Virus record (IMG/VR): IMGVR_UViG_2579778670_000004
Length of the DNA stretch: 44,004 bases
Strand: one strand, 5' to 3'
Source of the DNA: a virus
Lineage: Duplodnaviria; Heunggongvirae; Uroviricota; Caudoviricetes
Shown: positions 23,384-35,953 of the stretch, one piece after another
Numbering within the stretch: the first letter of the stretch is position 1
Layout: each line of letters starts with the position of its first letter
Program-made: the position numbers and the translations under genes
The notes under the pieces: model-generated
What the model saw: the letters and a program-made list of their open reading frames with translations, nothing else
Databases searched by the model: none
Told to the model about the DNA's origin: nothing

Positions 23384-24025
23384 TTATTTATCACTCCTGT
23401 AAATTGGAATTAACCATTTTCTAATCGTCGACGCTGCAGGTGGGTCAGAGTATTTCGCCACAAAAATACCGGATATGTATTGCACGCCACGCGATAATGG
23501 CGCTGTCGGGTTTTCAGTAAAAAAACGATCAGCCAGTTCAATGGCTTCGCTTTTTAATCTGTGCTGTGGTCGTCCTCCGCCCTTTGTTCCCAGGTATCGC
23601 GCCAGTTGTTTGAAACGGTAGGCGATGATTAACGGTCGCATCATCATATTGAAAAAATCGCGGGCATCGTTGTCAGCGCCTTGCGCTATCAACAGTGCAA
23701 AAAACAGATACGGGATTATGTACACTTCAGGAGATATACGAACCCGTTCACAAGTTGGTGGAGCCAACTCAATAAGTAAGTCAGCCAGCGGATTCCCCTT
23801 TTCTCCACGTTTGTAATAGCGATACAGCGGCCCGATATCAAGTTCACTCACGTCGATTTCAGGATGCCCGGCAACGACTGTACGTATCTCTTCTGCCAGA
23901 GCGTCAAATATTGCCCCGGTCCGTTCAAGATAGAGCCTCCGGGTCGAACCGCGATCATCCAACGCCCGTAACATATCTAACCGGCTAACGAAAGTTTCAG
24001 GCCAGTCCTCATAGAAGGTTTTCAT
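23384..24025 (-). CDS. Hypothetical cargo protein (unknown function)
   Basis: Start placed at the Met with GAGGT Shine-Dalgarno (MKTFYEDW...), 213 aa; no recognisable motif. Followed on its strand by a 9-bp inverted repeat AAACGGTTT/AAACCGTTT at about 23,342..23,370. Confidence 0.45.
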   Translation of the reverse strand: MKTFYEDWPETFVSRLDMLRALDDRGSTRRLYLERTGAIFDALAEEIRTVVAGHPEIDVSELDIGPLYRYYKRGEKGNPLADLLIELAPPTCERVRISPEVYIIPYLFFALLIAQGADNDARDFFNMMMRPLIIAYRFKQLARYLGTKGGGRPQHRLKSEAIELADRFFTENPTAPLSRGVQYISGIFVAKYSDPPAASTIRKWLIPIYRSDK

Positions 24026-24268
24026 AATTACCTCGAATAATAAAAACTGCACTATTTGCACAATTTATTATTCGTTTTCACGCCGCTGAGTTCTATAAAA
24101 AAGAAAAAACCTCCGAGGCAGGGTTTTGTTATGGCTCGTTAAATCATCATCCAACTTTTTAGACTGAACGGTGATACTTGCAAATATTTGAAAATATGGG
24201 CTGGAACCCTATCTTATGATGTGCCTGGTAATTTATATTGTTGGGTCTTTATATCATGAGGAATCACT

Positions 24269-24502
24269 ATGGGTACGTTAGGCAACCAGCCGTGCAGAAG
24301 TCGTTATGAGTTCGATGATTTTAATTTAGCCAATCGAGCTGCGGCTCTTACTAAGTTAGCAAAAGAAACTGGTGTATCGGTGGATACCTTAATCAAACTT
24401 GAAATTGCTATGCAACTGAATCGGCTCAACTCCATCCTTATCGAAAACGGTGACAAGATGGACGAGAATCTGGCAGGTATTGGCGAGATACTGCAGAAGT
24501 GA
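24269..24502 (+). CDS. Small protein, possible degenerate HTH regulator
   Basis: 77-aa ORF with GAGGA Shine-Dalgarno; segment LAKETGVSVDTLIKLE resembles an XRE-type helix-turn-helix; followed by hairpin CCCCTC-TTCT-GAGGGG. Confidence 0.4.
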   Translation: MGTLGNQPCRSRYEFDDFNLANRAAALTKLAKETGVSVDTLIKLEIAMQLNRLNSILIENGDKMDENLAGIGEILQK

Positions 24503-24809
24503 GAGTAGCCCCTCTTCTGAGGGGTTGCACATTTAAAATATTAAGGGCGGTCTTCTTCACGTACACAGTCACCTGGTCGAATCGTTCACGCATACTGAGT
24601 ACAAAAAATCTCAACGATAAGATCAGGTTAGACCTGTATTTTCCAGAAACATATAGACGCCTAAAAAAACACTAAACTCATGATTATCATGTATGTTTTT
24701 ACTGGAAACATTGAACCATCCACAATACAGCGTAAAAAGCAAGCAATTCACAAGATTTTAAAGTGATTTATCTGGAAGACTTTACTACTAACAGTTAATA
24801 TCGTACCAG

Positions 24810-24828
24810 AAGTGCAGAATTTGCACTT
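24810..24828. promoter_or_regulatory. 19-bp perfect palindrome AAGTGCAGAATTTGCACTT (candidate operator)
   Basis: Perfect inverted repeat about 75 bp upstream of the metallopeptidase start codon. Confidence 0.4.
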
Positions 24829-24900
24829 TTACAGGAATGTGGTACGGAACATGCTGTCTATATTTCAACCAATAATCGTAATGCAGTAACTGGAGGAGCT

Positions 24901-25389
24901 ATGGCTACCAACCCAAGAGAGCACGCCCGGCGAGTGCTGGACACGTTCTGGTGCGGGCGTGGTTTCCCTGTTGATCCAGCGAAAATTGCTCACGACATGG
25001 GATTAGATGTTTTTATTACCGATCTTCCTGGGAAAGTTTCTGGCGCACTGATTAAACAAAAAGATCAAGATCCAGCGATCTTTCTAAACAGTGATGACAA
25101 CAAAGTTCGTCAACGTTTTTCATGTGGGCATGAGTTGGGGCATTACATCGCCCGGCAAGCATCGCATAGCGATGAATATGAGTACGTTGATTTACGTGGC
25201 GAAACCGCAAGCGCCGGAACGCATCCTGATGAAATTTTTGCAAACAAGTTCGCAGCAGAACTTCTGATGCCGGTAGATGAGGTCAGAAAACTGCACGCTG
25301 ACGGTCAACCAAGTTATATAATGGCGCATTATTTTGGCGTATCTGACGATGCGATGACTTATCGTTTAAAGAACTTGAGGTTGGGGTAA
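24901..25389 (+). CDS. ImmA/IrrE-family zinc metallopeptidase (HExxH)
   Basis: 162-aa ORF with HELGHY motif and overall ImmA/IrrE (COG2856-type) pattern; GGAGGA Shine-Dalgarno. Confidence 0.7.
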   Translation: MATNPREHARRVLDTFWCGRGFPVDPAKIAHDMGLDVFITDLPGKVSGALIKQKDQDPAIFLNSDDNKVRQRFSCGHELGHYIARQASHSDEYEYVDLRGETASAGTHPDEIFANKFAAELLMPVDEVRKLHADGQPSYIMAHYFGVSDDAMTYRLKNLRLG

Positions 25390-25398
25390 CGCTTTAAA

Positions 25399-26004
25399 AT
25401 GCCATCGGATGACGATTTTAACAGCCGTTTCAAACAGGAAGTAGCACGCAGACTGAAGGATTCCCTCAACCTACACCGTCAGTTAGCAGAAGAGGTTGAG
25501 CCGGAGGACGATGAAACTCCGGTTCAGTCTCCTGACGAAGCTTCACCTCAGCCAAAGGTTTCGCACGCCCCCAAAAAAACGGCTGTCCGTATTCGCGGAA
25601 TAGCCAGAAAAAGAGCTGCCGAAGCTCGCAAAATGGCTGTAGCTGCGTCTAGCAAAAGAATTCCAACTGCTACACCCTCTCAACAAGTCACCCGTACTGA
25701 GAGTAAAATCTTGACCGAGTTCACATCTGTGAAACAGGTGAATTCACTTGATACCGAGCATGAGCGCAAACAACTCAACAACAAAGATTTTGAAGCAGAA
25801 ATCGCTCTAAAAAAACGATACGGGAAATGGTTCCTGATTATCCTTGCTTTCCAACTTCTGATAATGAATGGTGTATTTATTGCCGACGGCGCAGGTAAGC
25901 TGGAATTTGAGGATTTAACACTACAGTTGTACATGGGCGGTACTTTGACAGAGGTATTCGGCCTCGTGCTGGTCGTGACAAAATACCTTTTTAAACGCAA
26001 GTAA
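25399..26004 (+). CDS. Membrane protein with charged N-terminal region and two C-terminal transmembrane helices
   Basis: 201-aa ORF 9 bp after the peptidase stop; about 140 aa Lys/Arg/Glu-rich, then FLIILAFQLLIMNGVFIA and TLTEVFGLVLVVTKYLF helices. Confidence 0.55.
   Translation: MPSDDDFNSRFKQEVARRLKDSLNLHRQLAEEVEPEDDETPVQSPDEASPQPKVSHAPKKTAVRIRGIARKRAAEARKMAVAASSKRIPTATPSQQVTRTESKILTEFTSVKQVNSLDTEHERKQLNNKDFEAEIALKKRYGKWFLIILAFQLLIMNGVFIADGAGKLEFEDLTLQLYMGGTLTEVFGLVLVVTKYLFKRK
25933..26004 (+). repeat. Direct repeat copy 1 (3' end of membrane-protein gene)
   Basis: About 72 bp, roughly 90 percent identical to 29354..29425. Confidence 0.7.
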
Positions 26005-26248
26005 CTCTCTCGGTCCAACAGTCTTTCGAAGGCCCTGATCAAAGGGCCTTGATAAATTAGCAGTGCGTTGAAAACAGATAGTTATTCCCATCAGTTCCAA
26101 CGTAATACACATCAAAAAAATCACCATTCTTTTGCTCTAACGTCAACACCTACCCTTAAAAAAATAATTCTCCAAGAATGAGAAAGTTATTGTGTGTATT
26201 AGATAAGATATGAGCTGACACATCTATGGCGTGGAGCCAAATTTAATA

Positions 26249-26282
26249 TGACAGTCCGCTCTGTGCCATAAGCGGACTGTCA
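26249..26282. other. Perfect 11-bp inverted repeat (TGACAGTCCGC / GCGGACTGTCA) with 12-nt loop; possible terminator or protein-binding site
   Basis: Seen directly in sequence, in the intergenic space downstream of both convergent genes. Confidence 0.4.
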
Positions 26283-26466
26283 ATAAACAGATTCACTTGT
26301 AAATCTTGAAGCTATACATATTTACTTTCAATGATAAATAAAAGAACTATCCAAAAATCACTGAGAGCATATTTTAACTAACCCTCCGCTACTATTAACA
26401 TAAATTTCACCCAACCATAATTAAATTGATACATATAGCAACTTACCTTGATACGAATCATCTGGG

Positions 26467-27165
26467 TTATATTTTTCCATATTTTTTTCCGTCAAATCGA
26501 ATCATGCCAGGATCAAGAAAATTAATTAAATCGATTAACGCGTGCTGTATTCTGATTAGCCTTTCTTTATAAATTCCGATATCTCTTGTCATATTTATCA
26601 CTTCATTGTTTAAATCTAAAAAAAATGGCTCATTGATAAAGCAATTTTCCTTTGTGAAACTGCCGTAACCTATGCAATCAAATCCAGTATCTGTTGATAT
26701 CAGCATCTTTTCTGCAATAGCTCTCTGCTCTCCTATGAAAAACATAAAATACTGACCAAAGACGTCTGTTTGGATTAATGAGTTAATATTGTTCTGTAAT
26801 CTAATAAACTCCCTCATTTTTTTATTTTTTTCTAGGCTAAGGTATTGAATGTCTATGCGGGCAGCTTCTGTCCATGCAAAAAACTGGGAAAAAAGAAAAA
26901 CAGTATTGTTGATAACATAATCTTGTTGGCGCTTATTCCCATTATGATAAAACTCTTCAATGAACCCCAATTCTAATATATTATAAATACGGCTTTGTAA
27001 GTCTGAAGCTGAGCGAATTAACGGTTCAATATAGTACTGATGTTTTCTCCTTACATCCAGTGATTCATTGAGCTTGTTTATTCTATTCTGATTATAAGTA
27101 GATATAGCAATAGAGATTATAGCTATTGCACCACTAATAAAGCTTGAAATTAATGCCGTACCCAT
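26467..27165 (-). CDS. Hypothetical protein with N-terminal transmembrane anchor (unknown function, AT-rich cargo)
   Basis: 232-aa ORF; N-terminal hydrophobic helix (ALISSFISGAIAIISIAIS); low-GC codon usage unlike the phage backbone. Confidence 0.5.
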   Translation of the reverse strand: MGTALISSFISGAIAIISIAISTYNQNRINKLNESLDVRRKHQYYIEPLIRSASDLQSRIYNILELGFIEEFYHNGNKRQQDYVINNTVFLFSQFFAWTEAARIDIQYLSLEKNKKMREFIRLQNNINSLIQTDVFGQYFMFFIGEQRAIAEKMLISTDTGFDCIGYGSFTKENCFINEPFFLDLNNEVINMTRDIGIYKERLIRIQHALIDLINFLDPGMIRFDGKKYGKI

Positions 27166-35092: not shown

Positions 35093-35323
35093 TTAAGCTG
35101 CTTCCGTTTTAGGCAAGCTGTCATCTGGGTTTGGGTAAAGATCCGGTCTAAGATCATGAGGGGTCACGCGCCATTCAAGAGCTTCAGATGTGCGCAAAAC
35201 CTCTTCACCGGGAACCCGTCCTTTGAACCAGAGGCTTACCGTTTGTGGTTTTTTCCCTAATCGCCGCCCTAACTCGGATTGACTCATTACGGAAAGAATT
35301 TTGTCTTGCAGTTGTTTATCCAT
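35093..35323 (-). CDS. Cro-like HTH regulator (YdaS-like)
   Basis: Start set at the ATG with AAGGAG Shine-Dalgarno (MDKQLQDKILSVMSQSELGRRLG...), 76 aa; divergent from the repressor gene. Confidence 0.5.
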   Translation of the reverse strand: MDKQLQDKILSVMSQSELGRRLGKKPQTVSLWFKGRVPGEEVLRTSEALEWRVTPHDLRPDLYPNPDDSLPKTEAA

Positions 35324-35348
35324 ATGGACTCCTTGTGTCCGCGTCATC

Positions 35349-35387
35349 ATTACAAACAATAACTGTAATTACAAATTATATTTGCAA
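35349..35387. promoter_or_regulatory. Operator region between divergent cro-like and repressor genes
   Basis: Inverted repeats ATTACA-N9-TGTAAT (35349..35369) and TTACAAAT-TAT-ATTTGCAA (35369..35387). Confidence 0.45.
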
Positions 35388-35406
35388 TGCTCCCTACAAT
35401 TAAACC

Positions 35407-35835
35407 TTGTATCCTTACGGTATGAACACAAAAACGAAAAACATGGCTTTTGCTAGCCGACTACAACGGATTCTAAAAGACTTAGGCTGGTCTCAATCTG
35501 AGTTAGCTCGCCATATTGGGGTTACGGCTCAATCAGTTCAGGCATGGTGTAATGGGGTAACTCCAAGAAAAGATAAATTAGACAAGCTAGCAAAAGTGAC
35601 CGGATACCCTGTTCATTTTTTCTTCATGAATGAAGGGGAATATTTGGATGAATCCACACTACACCCGGGTAATTACAATCAAGAACTAACCCCGCAAGAA
35701 CAGGCTCTACTGCAACTATTCAGAGGACTGCCTGAGAGCGAAAAAAATAAATTAATCAATGAGCTAAAAGAAAAAAGAGAGCACTTCGATCTACTGCTAA
35801 AAGAACTACTTGAAGCCAAAAACCAGACAAAATAG
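35407..35835 (+). CDS. CI-like prophage repressor (XRE-family HTH, no S24 peptidase domain)
   Basis: 142-aa ORF; N-terminal HTH (LGWSQSELARHIGVTAQSVQAW); C-terminal short coiled-coil segment only. Confidence 0.6.
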   Translation: MYPYGMNTKTKNMAFASRLQRILKDLGWSQSELARHIGVTAQSVQAWCNGVTPRKDKLDKLAKVTGYPVHFFFMNEGEYLDESTLHPGNYNQELTPQEQALLQLFRGLPESEKNKLINELKEKREHFDLLLKELLEAKNQTK

Positions 35836-35953
35836 TTCAGTTCAAATTTCCAGGCCAGCCGCTGCTGGCATGCAACTTTCCCCTAACACAAAAACACCTT
35901 TACACAGTGAATATTTTTTTGCCCCTCACTACAAATTATTTTTTAAAAACACA

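What the first reader, a model, noticed from the sequence alone, without database searches (positions are those of the whole stretch)
24810..24828. Perfect 19-bp palindrome upstream of the peptidase operon
AAGTGCAGAATTTGCACTT is an exact inverted repeat, unlikely by chance, placed where an operator for the module would sit. Additional ATGAT/ATCAT-type palindromes occur at 24,679..24,691.
Basis: seen in the sequence. Interest (0 to 1): 0.35.

Follow-up and report, generated by a model that had tools for sequence, protein, structure and literature searches.

The report
Leader hairpin of a prophage peptidase cassette

Summary
AAGTGCA-GAATT-TGCACTT is at 24810-24828 as reported. It is not a perfect 19-bp palindrome: it has 7-bp arms, a 5-nt spacer and a G8/T12 mismatch. 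It is not improbable on its own. The window holds 43 repeats of this grade against about 27 in shuffles, and a 261-nt region of this composition contains at least one in 23% of shuffles.

It lies 72 nt upstream of a 162-aa M78 (ImmA/IrrE-type) peptidase gene, which is followed by a membrane-protein gene. The two genes and about 260 nt of upstream DNA (24640-26011) move together as a cassette among enterobacterial prophages. No helix-turn-helix gene accompanies them in any context seen.

In homologous upstream regions from Salmonella and other genera, a conserved TAnnAT box (window TAATAT, 24796-24801) is followed by a hairpin with different arms:
- window: AAGTGCA/TGCACTT
- L164: AACCACA/TGTGGTT
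- L159: CAGAAGC/GCTTCTG
- a second class: longer stems with 5 compensatory pairs

Position is conserved, while sequence and loop length (3-20 nt) are not. This fits a stem-loop at the 5' end of the cassette mRNA better than a fixed-geometry operator, but the transcription start is only inferred.

The 77-aa ORF and the prophage CI/Cro operators are not linked to it. The finding is ordinary and of low to moderate interest.

The parts
24810..24828 (+). Inner inverted repeat AAGTGCA-GAATT-TGCACTT (7-bp arms, 5-nt spacer/loop). This is the reported finding.
   Evidence: I16. Identical in 417 of the 431 E. coli genomes that carry it; the other 14 differ only outside the arms.
24808..24830 (+). Extended stem-loop as RNA: AGAAGUGCA GAAUU UGCACUUUU. 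It has 8 pairs including G24809.U24829, with dG -9.1 kcal/mol.
   Evidence: The Salmonella L164 leader has the same geometry, with 3 of the 5 inner pairs changed on both sides.
24802..24808 (+). Left arm of the outer inverted repeat (CGTACCA).
   Evidence: I15. Kept as CGTACCAG in Salmonella L159.
24840..24846 (+). Right arm of the outer inverted repeat (TGGTACG). The 11 nt between it and the inner stem (24829-24839) carry the only substitutions seen in the 95%-identical variant.
   Evidence: Deleted in L164 and L172.
24796..24801 (+). TAATAT, a conserved -10-like box (TAnnAT). If it is the -10, the transcription start is near 24808.
   Evidence: Aligned in all homologous leaders as TAATAT, TATTAT, TAAGAT or TATGAT, with T1, A2, A5 and T6 invariant. 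It is the only promoter candidate at a conserved position, ranking 1-15 of 173 in a simple PWM scan. There is no -35, so the start site is inferred, not shown.
24764..24778 (+). Conserved upstream block TGATTTATCTGGAAG (TGATTTnnCTrGnrG in relatives). Function unknown.
   Evidence: alignment (window, RM9387, E. whittamii, L159, L164, L172).
24679..24691 (.). CATGATTATCATG, the second palindrome named in the finding (6+1+6).
   Evidence: Chance-level grade. Mutated in E. whittamii.
24640..26011 (+). Extent of the mobile cassette: about 260 nt of upstream region plus two genes. It is shared with prophages whose flanks differ on both sides.
   Evidence: left end near 24640; right end 7 nt after the stop codon.
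24901..25389 (+). 162-aa M78 (ImmA/IrrE-type) zinc metallopeptidase with HELGH motif. It consists of the peptidase domain only.
   Evidence: Pfam PF06114 7.7e-18. PADLOC capP 2.4e-25, covering profile positions 3-151 of 242. About 125 homologues.
25399..26004 (+). 201-aa partner protein: a conserved N-terminal helix, a variable charged linker and a conserved hydrophobic C-terminal region likely to span the membrane twice (read by eye, not predicted with a tool). It always follows the peptidase.
   Evidence: (phrog_5346).

Best explanation
The inverted repeat is a cis element of the control region of a mobile two-gene prophage cassette (M78 peptidase plus membrane protein). It most likely acts as an RNA stem-loop at or very near the 5' end of the cassette mRNA.

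Proposed mechanism:
1. Transcription starts about 7 nt after the conserved TAATAT box, near 24808 (inferred).
2. The transcript then begins AGAAGUGCA-GAAUU-UGCACUUUU and folds at once into an 8-9 bp hairpin.
3. In E. coli, a 5'-terminal hairpin of this kind shields an mRNA from 5'-end-dependent decay by RppH and RNase E. It therefore sets the steady-state level of a message that encodes a potentially harmful membrane protein (inferred by analogy).

Shown: the repeat exists, it travels with the cassette, and homologous leaders keep a hairpin at this position with different arm sequences.
Inferred: the start site, that the element acts as RNA rather than DNA, and the effect on mRNA stability.
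For: - The element belongs to the cassette, not to its neighbours.
- Homologous leaders align through a TAnnAT box and then carry hairpins of different sequence. The window has G.U, A-U, A-U, G-C, U-A, G-C, C-G, A-U. L164 has G.U, A-U, A-U, C-G, C-G, A-U, C-G, A-U. L159 has a 7-bp stem, CAGAAGC/GCUUCUG, with a 12-nt loop.
- In the second leader class (L015, L166, L173, L161), a 12-pair consensus helix has 85% of cells paired, against 27-42% when the partners are slid. Five pairs are changed on both sides, against 0-2 in slid controls.
- In 6 of 11 loci (five different leader sequences, since L001 is the window's own class), the most stable 44-nt fold in the whole 230-nt upstream region starts 1-6 nt after the box.
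- The folds of the predicted transcripts start at nucleotide 1-2 in 8 of 9 loci carrying a TAATAT/TATTAT/TAAGAT box.
- Loop or spacer length varies (3, 5, 12 and about 20 nt), and apical parts differ. This is natural for RNA and unnatural for one family of dimeric DNA binders.
- No DNA-binding gene accompanies the cassette in lambdoid, P2-like, Mu-like or integrase-adjacent contexts across at least 7 genera.
- The 5'-terminal stem-loop stabiliser is an established E. coli mechanism (Emory, Bouvet & Belasco 1992; Bricker & Belasco 1999), as listed in PMC3997798.
Against: - The start site is not measured. The TAnnAT box has no recognisable -35 and ranks only 1-15 of 173 in a crude PWM scan.
- If the start is near 24808, the left arm of the outer repeat (24802-24808) is not transcribed. 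Yet that repeat is conserved in L159.
- There is no strand asymmetry. Mean folding z is -1.1 on the + strand and -1.4 on the - strand across 18 leaders, and G.U and A.C cells are equally frequent in class 2. DNA-level dyad symmetry explains the data equally well.
- In L019 and L015, near-consensus sigma-70 promoters (TTGTCA-17-CATAAT, TTGACA-18-GGTAAT) lie downstream and overlap the dyads, which is an operator-like position.
- L019 and L013 carry perfect palindromes with no spacer (14 and 16 bp), which is more typical of protein-binding sites.
- One relative (L172) has lost the hairpin, and L171 has it 19 nt after the box.
- Only 4 + 4-6 distinct sequences are available, and they are related by descent.
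Confidence: 0.4

Rival explanations
1. The repeat is a protein-binding dyad in DNA (an operator or activator site) for an unidentified trans-acting factor of the host or prophage, and it controls the cassette promoter. If the start is near 24808, the dyad is centred at about +11 or +12, a lac-O1-like repressor position. If the promoter is TTTACA(24828-24833)-16-CATGCT(24850-24855), the dyad is centred near -43 and abuts the -35.
For: - It has dyad symmetry and a promoter-proximal position.
- Relatives carry perfect palindromes with no spacer: L019 GAGAGGTACCTCTC inside the spacer of TTGTCA-17-CATAAT, and L013 TTATCCGCGCGGATAA. L015's dyad overlaps a consensus TTGACA.
- Folding z-scores and mismatch types show no strand bias.
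- The outer repeat, which an RNA starting at 24808 cannot use, is conserved in L159.
Against: - There is no cognate DNA-binding gene in or next to the cassette in about 15 contexts.
- Arm sequences differ completely among close relatives of the same two proteins. Each version would therefore need a different factor supplied by unrelated prophages or hosts.
- The spacing between arms varies (3, 5, 12, about 20 and 27-34 nt).
- There is no second copy in the 44-kb window at up to 2 mismatches.
- By eye, it does not match the CRP, FNR, LexA, PurR, NtrC or Fur consensus in symmetry or spacing.
Confidence: 0.28
2. The repeat has no function. It is a chance inverted repeat, or a neutral remnant, in an AT-rich and recombination-prone upstream region.
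For: - Repeats of this grade are common: 43 in the window, and at least one in 23% of shuffled 261-nt regions.
- E. coli copies are nearly clonal (417 of 431 identical), so conservation within E. coli carries no information.
- L172 lacks a stable hairpin.
- Several leaders have folding z-scores near 0.
Against: - A dyad recurs at the same place in at least 8 leaders with different sequences, with compensatory changes.
- Nested repeats are about 6 times rarer in shuffles.
- The only two substitutions in this 45-nt stretch of the 95%-identical variant fall in the unpaired 11-nt bulge.
Confidence: 0.2
3. One reading: the repeat is the operator bound by the neighbouring 77-aa protein or by the prophage CI-like repressor.
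For: It lies next to the 77-aa ORF on the same strand. By eye, that ORF contains a stretch (LAKETGVSVDTLIKLE) reminiscent of a helix-turn-helix.
Against: - The cassette with the identical palindrome occurs without the 77-aa ORF, and the ORF occurs without the cassette.
- The ORF has no domain hit. Its AlphaFold model is two long helices (17-34 and 38-76; pLDDT 81, shallow alignment), which is not a helix-turn-helix.
- CI/Cro operators are of the ATTACA-N9-TGTAAT type.
- The dyad is unique in the window.
Confidence: 0.04
4. The repeat is an intrinsic terminator or attenuator that stops transcripts coming from upstream, or from the TAATAT promoter, before they reach the peptidase gene.
For: It has the outline of an A-tract, a short stem and a U-run: AGAA-GUGCA...UGCAC-UUUU. 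L164 has the same outline with UUUUUG.
Against: - The terminator scan does not call it.
- The stem has only 3 G-C pairs and at most 4 U follow it.
- L159 and all class-2 hairpins have no U-tract.
- The minus strand has no T-run.
Confidence: 0.05

Closest known systems
5'-terminal mRNA-stabilising stem-loops of E. coli (ompA and papA 5' UTR type; Emory/Bouvet/Belasco)
   Same: It is a short hairpin predicted to begin within 0-2 nt of the inferred transcript 5' end. The structure is kept while the sequence drifts among relatives, and no protein partner is needed.
   Different: Neither the start site nor any effect on half-life has been measured here. The hairpin is weaker (-9 kcal/mol). An additional outer repeat would lie partly outside the transcript.
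Operators of peptidase/repressor switches (ImmR/ImmA of ICEBs1, DdrO/IrrE of Deinococcus, CapH/CapP of CBASS)
   Same: An M78 peptidase gene lies downstream of a promoter-proximal dyad. The peptidase domain scores best against the capP profile.
   Different: There is no helix-turn-helix repressor gene in any context. The peptidase lacks the linker and GAF domains (162 aa, aligned to positions 3-151 of the 242-position capP profile). The dyad sequence is not conserved among relatives, whereas CapH sites are a conserved 22-bp element (bioRxiv 10.1101/2022.04.27.489752). The downstream partner is a membrane protein rather than an immune operon.
Prophage 'morons' (an accessory gene unit with its own promoter, inserted between phage genes)
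   Same: It is a self-contained unit with its own upstream region. It is inserted in different positions of unrelated prophages and, in this window, is transcribed against the phage early-right operon.
   Different: The shared unit ends 7 nt after the stop codon and carries no terminator of its own.
lac O1-type operators centred at +11
   Same: If the start is near 24808, the dyad centre (24819) is at +11 or +12.
   Different: There is no known cognate repressor. The symmetry is odd-numbered with 7-bp arms, and the geometry varies among relatives.

Membership tests
CI/Cro operator of the resident prophage | Sequence related to the repeated operators between the divergent cI-like and cro-like genes | tested here: not met
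   The operators at 35348-35400 are ATTACAAACAATAACTGTAAT and ATTACAAATTATATTTGCAAT. They share no half-site with AAGTGCA, and the dyad is unique in the window.
ImmR/ImmA - CapH/CapP - DdrO/IrrE regulatory module | Adjacent helix-turn-helix (XRE/CI-type) repressor gene that is the peptidase substrate | tested here: not met
   No helix-turn-helix gene flanks the cassette in the window or in about 15 other contexts.
ImmR/ImmA - CapH/CapP - DdrO/IrrE regulatory module | Three-domain peptidase (M78, helix-turn-helix-like linker, GAF) that senses ssDNA | tested here: not met
   The protein is 162 aa and covers capP profile positions 3-151 of 242. The domain description is from bioRxiv 10.1101/2022.04.27.489752.
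ImmR/ImmA - CapH/CapP - DdrO/IrrE regulatory module | Operator sequence conserved among related systems | tested here: not met
   Arm sequences differ in every leader class.
5'-terminal stabilising stem-loop | Hairpin conserved as a structure (compensatory changes) in homologous leaders | tested here: met
   Window against L164: 3 of 5 inner pairs changed on both sides. Class 2: 5 of 12 pairs compensatory and 85% paired, against 27-42% in slid controls. The samples are small (4 sequences each).
5'-terminal stabilising stem-loop | Hairpin begins within a few nucleotides of the transcript 5' end | tested here: inconclusive
   This holds only if the conserved TAnnAT box is the -10. No start-site data are available.
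5'-terminal stabilising stem-loop | Removing the hairpin shortens mRNA half-life in an RNase E/RppH-dependent way | not testable with these tools
   This needs rifampicin chase experiments on wild-type and arm mutants.
Intrinsic (Rho-independent) terminator | G+C-rich stem followed by at least 5 U within 8 nt | tested here: not met
   The scan does not call it on either strand. The stem has 3 G-C pairs and at most 4 U follow.
Known RNA families (Rfam 15) | Covariance-model match | tested here: not met
   No match at E <= 1 in 24000-26500 on either strand.
sigma-54 promoter (TGGCACG-N4-TTGCW) | GG at -24 and GC at -12, 10 nt apart, both conserved | tested here: not met
   TGGTACGGAACATGCT (24840-24855) fits in this window. 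However, the -12 GC is GT in RM9387 and E. whittamii, and the stretch is deleted in L164 and L172.

The most novel reading that the evidence does not exclude
The position-conserved, sequence-variable hairpin could be the control switch of an uncharacterised defence or abortive-infection module. The module is an M78 peptidase with no helix-turn-helix partner, followed by a two-pass membrane effector. In this reading the hairpin would be a cis RNA or DNA element that keeps the membrane protein silent until infection or DNA damage, for instance by being bound or unfolded by the peptidase itself or by an incoming phage factor. That would be a regulatory logic different from the repressor-cleavage switches known for ImmA, IrrE and CapP.
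Probability: 0.06. Interest if true: 0.6.

Novelty: new member of a known kind. Interest (0 to 1): 0.2.

Why it matters
The repeat itself matters little. Promoter-proximal hairpins in prophage accessory genes are commonplace, and this one has no demonstrated partner.

Its context is of more value. It marks the control region of a widespread, unstudied two-gene cassette found in about 8% of complete E. coli genomes, mostly ST131, and in Salmonella, Klebsiella, Cronobacter and other genera. The cassette pairs a stand-alone ImmA/IrrE-type peptidase with a membrane protein and lacks the repressor that normally defines such peptidase switches.

Knowing where the transcript starts, and whether the hairpin acts as RNA or as a binding site, would be the first step towards learning how the cassette is kept in check.

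Tried and rejected
- Rfam scan of 24000-26500: no match.
- Consensus promoter/terminator scan: nothing called at the repeat.
- Scan of IMG/VR for AAGTGCA-N5-TGCACTT: more than 120 hits, almost all inside unrelated coding sequence and with random spacers, so uninformative. A few AT-rich phages carry AAGTGCAAATTTTGCACTT in intergenic DNA; these look unrelated.
- Searches of sequenced phages by DNA and by protein: a single record, identical to the window.
- E. coli genomes: 431 copies, 417 identical and 14 differing only in the bulge, so there is no informative polymorphism.
- MAFFT/RNAalifold on the four class-1 hairpins: the 3' arms are misaligned because loop lengths differ, so no consensus structure came out. 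Pairs were therefore listed sequence by sequence.
- Strand-asymmetry test to separate RNA from DNA dyads: no asymmetry.
- Matches to CRP, FNR, LexA, PurR, NtrC and Fur sites, lambda-type boxB (the pentaloop GAAUU lacks the closing A) and attC core sites were considered by eye and rejected on symmetry, spacing or key bases.
- The sigma-54 match was rejected because the -12 GC is not conserved.
- A 28-codon ORF (24680-24766) has no ribosome-binding site and is not conserved in the relatives.
- The alternative -10 TATATT (24859-24864) is not conserved in L159.
- Literature search for the protein accessions: nothing found.

Full report
**Observation.** The 19-mer AAGTGCAGAATTTGCACTT is at 24810-24828. 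The repeat finder reports 7-nt arms (24810-24816 and 24822-24828), fully complementary, separated by 5 nt (I16). Read as a 19-bp palindrome it has one mismatch, G8 opposite T12, so "perfect" is an overstatement.

By chance alone the inner repeat is unremarkable. The window contains 43 repeats with perfect arms of at least 7 bp and spacers of 0-12 nt, against 26.8 +/- 4.2 in shuffles. In addition, 23% of shuffles of the 261-nt region hold at least one. Nested pairs are rarer, 3 against 0.47. The second palindrome, CATGATTATCATG (24679-24691), is exact but of a chance-level grade. It is mutated in the Escherichia whittamii copy.

**Context.** The window is a lambdoid prophage of ST131-type E. 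coli, integrated beside tRNA genes near pgsA and uvrC. The repeat lies 72 nt upstream of a 162-aa M78 (ImmA/IrrE) metallopeptidase gene (24901-25389; Pfam 7.7e-18). Its best defence-library match is capP, over the peptidase domain only. A 201-aa protein follows (25399-26004). It has a conserved N-terminal helix, a variable charged linker and a conserved hydrophobic C-terminal region that I read as two membrane spans. This last reading comes from the sequence by eye, not from a prediction tool.

Variant prophages (RM9387, S42, Z0117EC0040) share only 24640-26011, and their flanks differ on both sides. The unit is therefore a cassette that carries its own 260-nt upstream region. The 77-aa ORF (24269-24502) is outside it. 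The cassette occurs without the ORF, and the ORF occurs without the cassette (H38-H40).

The same gene pair is found in E. coli, Salmonella, Klebsiella, Cronobacter, Lelliottia, Leclercia, Buttiauxella and Plesiomonas. It sits in several prophage positions:
- beside integrases;
- after P2-type tail genes;
- in Mu-like phages;
- after lysis genes.

A helix-turn-helix gene never accompanies it.

The CI/Cro operators of this prophage (35348-35400) are of the ATTACA-N9-TGTAAT type and are unrelated to the dyad. The dyad is unique in the window even when 2 mismatches are allowed. The 77-aa protein is an orphan with 15 homologues and no domain hit. Its AlphaFold model is two long helices, not a helix-turn-helix (shallow alignment, pLDDT 81). 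Neither candidate is supported.

**Comparative evidence.** Within E. coli there is no useful variation. Of 431 copies, 417 are identical over 24796-24850 and 14 carry two substitutions. In the RM9387-type variant aligned, both substitutions fall in the unpaired 11-nt bulge.

More distant cassettes (77-89% protein identity) have upstream regions that are either unalignable or partly homologous. Three lineages align with the window through two blocks, TGATTTnnCTrG and GTTAwTATCrTA. They are L159 (Salmonella Kentucky), L164 (Salmonella) and L172. Right after the second block each carries its own hairpin:
- window: G.U, A-U, A-U, G-C, U-A, G-C, C-G, A-U with a 5-nt loop (-9.1 kcal/mol);
- L164: G.U, A-U, A-U, C-G, C-G, A-U, C-G, A-U with a 3-nt loop (-8.4 kcal/mol), so three inner pairs are changed on both sides;
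- L159: CAGAAGC/GCUUCUG with a 12-nt loop, and the outer repeat kept as CGTACCAG/CTGGTACG;
- L172: hairpin lost.

A second leader class (L015, L166, L173, L161, and more loosely L019 and L018) has the box as TAAGAT or TATGAT, followed by a longer imperfect hairpin. On four sequences the 12-pair consensus helix is 85% paired, against 27-42% for slid partners. It has 5 compensatory pairs, against 0-2 in the slid controls.

In 6 of 11 loci, the most stable 44-nt fold in the whole 230-nt upstream region starts 1-6 nt after the box. These six represent five different leader sequences, because L001 belongs to the window's own class. A dyad at this position is therefore conserved, while its sequence and loop length are not.

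**Mechanism.** The box keeps T1, A2, A5 and T6 in all versions while positions 3-4 and the flanks vary. That is the pattern expected of a -10 hexamer. It is also the only promoter candidate at a conserved position. If it is the -10, transcription starts near 24808 and the mRNA begins with the hairpin. The fold starts at nucleotide 1-2 in 8 of 9 loci carrying a TAATAT/TATTAT/TAAGAT box. This matches the established E. coli 5'-terminal stem-loop that protects mRNAs from 5'-end-dependent decay (references 93-95 in PMC3997798).

I take this as the best explanation, with a confidence of 0.4. The start site is inferred and several observations disagree:
- The box has no -35.
- The left arm of the outer repeat would not be transcribed, yet the repeat is conserved in L159.
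- Folding z-scores show no strand bias (-1.1 on the + strand, -1.4 on the - strand).
- G.U and A.C cells are equally frequent.
- In L019 and L015, near-consensus sigma-70 promoters lie downstream and overlap the dyads.
- L019 and L013 have perfect palindromes with no spacer.

The main rival is therefore a DNA site for an unidentified trans-acting factor (0.28). Against it stand the lack of any cognate gene, the complete divergence of the arms among close relatives, and the variable spacing.

**Comparison with known systems.** The element works like a leader stem-loop or a promoter-proximal dyad of a moron. It is not a member of the ImmR/ImmA, DdrO/IrrE or CapH/CapP switches. There is no repressor gene, the peptidase has a single domain, and there is no conserved operator. 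No Rfam family matches. It is not an intrinsic terminator. A sigma-54-like match at 24840-24855 loses its -12 GC in the variants.

**Verdict.** The repeat is real but imperfect, and it is probably a functional cis element of the cassette. Interest is low to moderate (0.2), and I class it as a new member of a known kind. The cassette itself is the more interesting object.

Noticed in passing
window 24964-24996 and 25107-25141: E. coli type I-E CRISPR arrays carry spacers identical to two sites inside the peptidase gene. Strains JX21CE8 and 48 match 25107-25141, and strain GCM39-10-2-9-3-1 matches 24964-24996. In strain 48 the 32-nt spacer sits between canonical CGGTTTATCCCCGCTGGCGCGGGGAACTC repeats. 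PAM and array context were not checked.
   Followed up: partly
window 24640-26011: The cassette pairs a stand-alone 162-aa M78 peptidase with a membrane protein (130-236 aa in relatives). The partner has a conserved N-terminal helix, a highly variable charged linker and a conserved hydrophobic C-terminus read by eye as two membrane spans. The pair never has a helix-turn-helix partner and has no function assigned (phrog_5346, no Pfam or PADLOC hit for the partner). One Salmonella record names the peptidase 'toxin'. It may be an uncharacterised defence or toxin-like module.
   Followed up: partly
L004 2251-2948 (window about 24750); also strain S9 (H2): Some ST131 genomes carry IS1 inserted in the cassette upstream region. 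In strain 2020S05-235 the insertion is about 47 nt upstream of the TAATAT box and leaves 24750-24910 intact.
   Followed up: no
window 24840-24855: TGGTACGGAACATGCT matches the sigma-54 -24/-12 spacing (GG-N10-GC). The GC is GT in RM9387 and E. whittamii, so the match is probably fortuitous.
   Followed up: partly
window 24834-24866: A second predicted RNA hairpin, rich in G.U pairs, gives the first 60 nt of the putative transcript a folding z-score of -4.75. It is weakened in the RM9387 variant (z -1.95) and absent in L159.
   Followed up: partly
window 24269-24502: The 77-aa ORF is an orphan: 15 homologues in 5.8 billion proteins, with only two at about 54% identity. Its predicted structure is a two-helix hairpin. 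A stem-loop, GCCCCTCTTCTGAGGGGT (seen by eye), follows its stop codon.
   Followed up: partly
window 35348-35400: The immunity-region operators of the prophage are two or three copies of ATTACA-N9-TGTAAT. They lie between the cro-like gene (35094-35324, - strand) and the CI-like helix-turn-helix gene (35444-35836, + strand).
   Followed up: partly
window 26467-27165 (- strand): A 232-aa protein next to the cassette has a weak match (1.8e-5) to a transmembrane protein associated with defence reverse transcriptases (PADLOC RTasTM). No reverse transcriptase gene was seen nearby.
   Followed up: no
L015, L018, L019, L166, L173 (about 20-40 nt upstream of the ATG); L161 variant: Class-2 leaders share an invariant small hairpin, CATTTC-GATGAT-GAAATG, just upstream of the ribosome-binding site. 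L161 has CATTTCAATGATGAAATG.
   Followed up: no
L165, about 45-65 nt upstream of the ATG: The Klebsiella oxytoca version has TACTGTATAAATTAACTGGT, a LexA-box-like sequence (CTGT-N8-ACTG, 14 of 20 matches to the consensus). Other leaders do not share it.
   Followed up: no
window 26031-26052: The hairpin AAGGCCCT-GATCA-AAGGGCCTT, seen by eye, lies just outside the right end of the shared cassette. The cassette itself carries no terminator.
   Followed up: no
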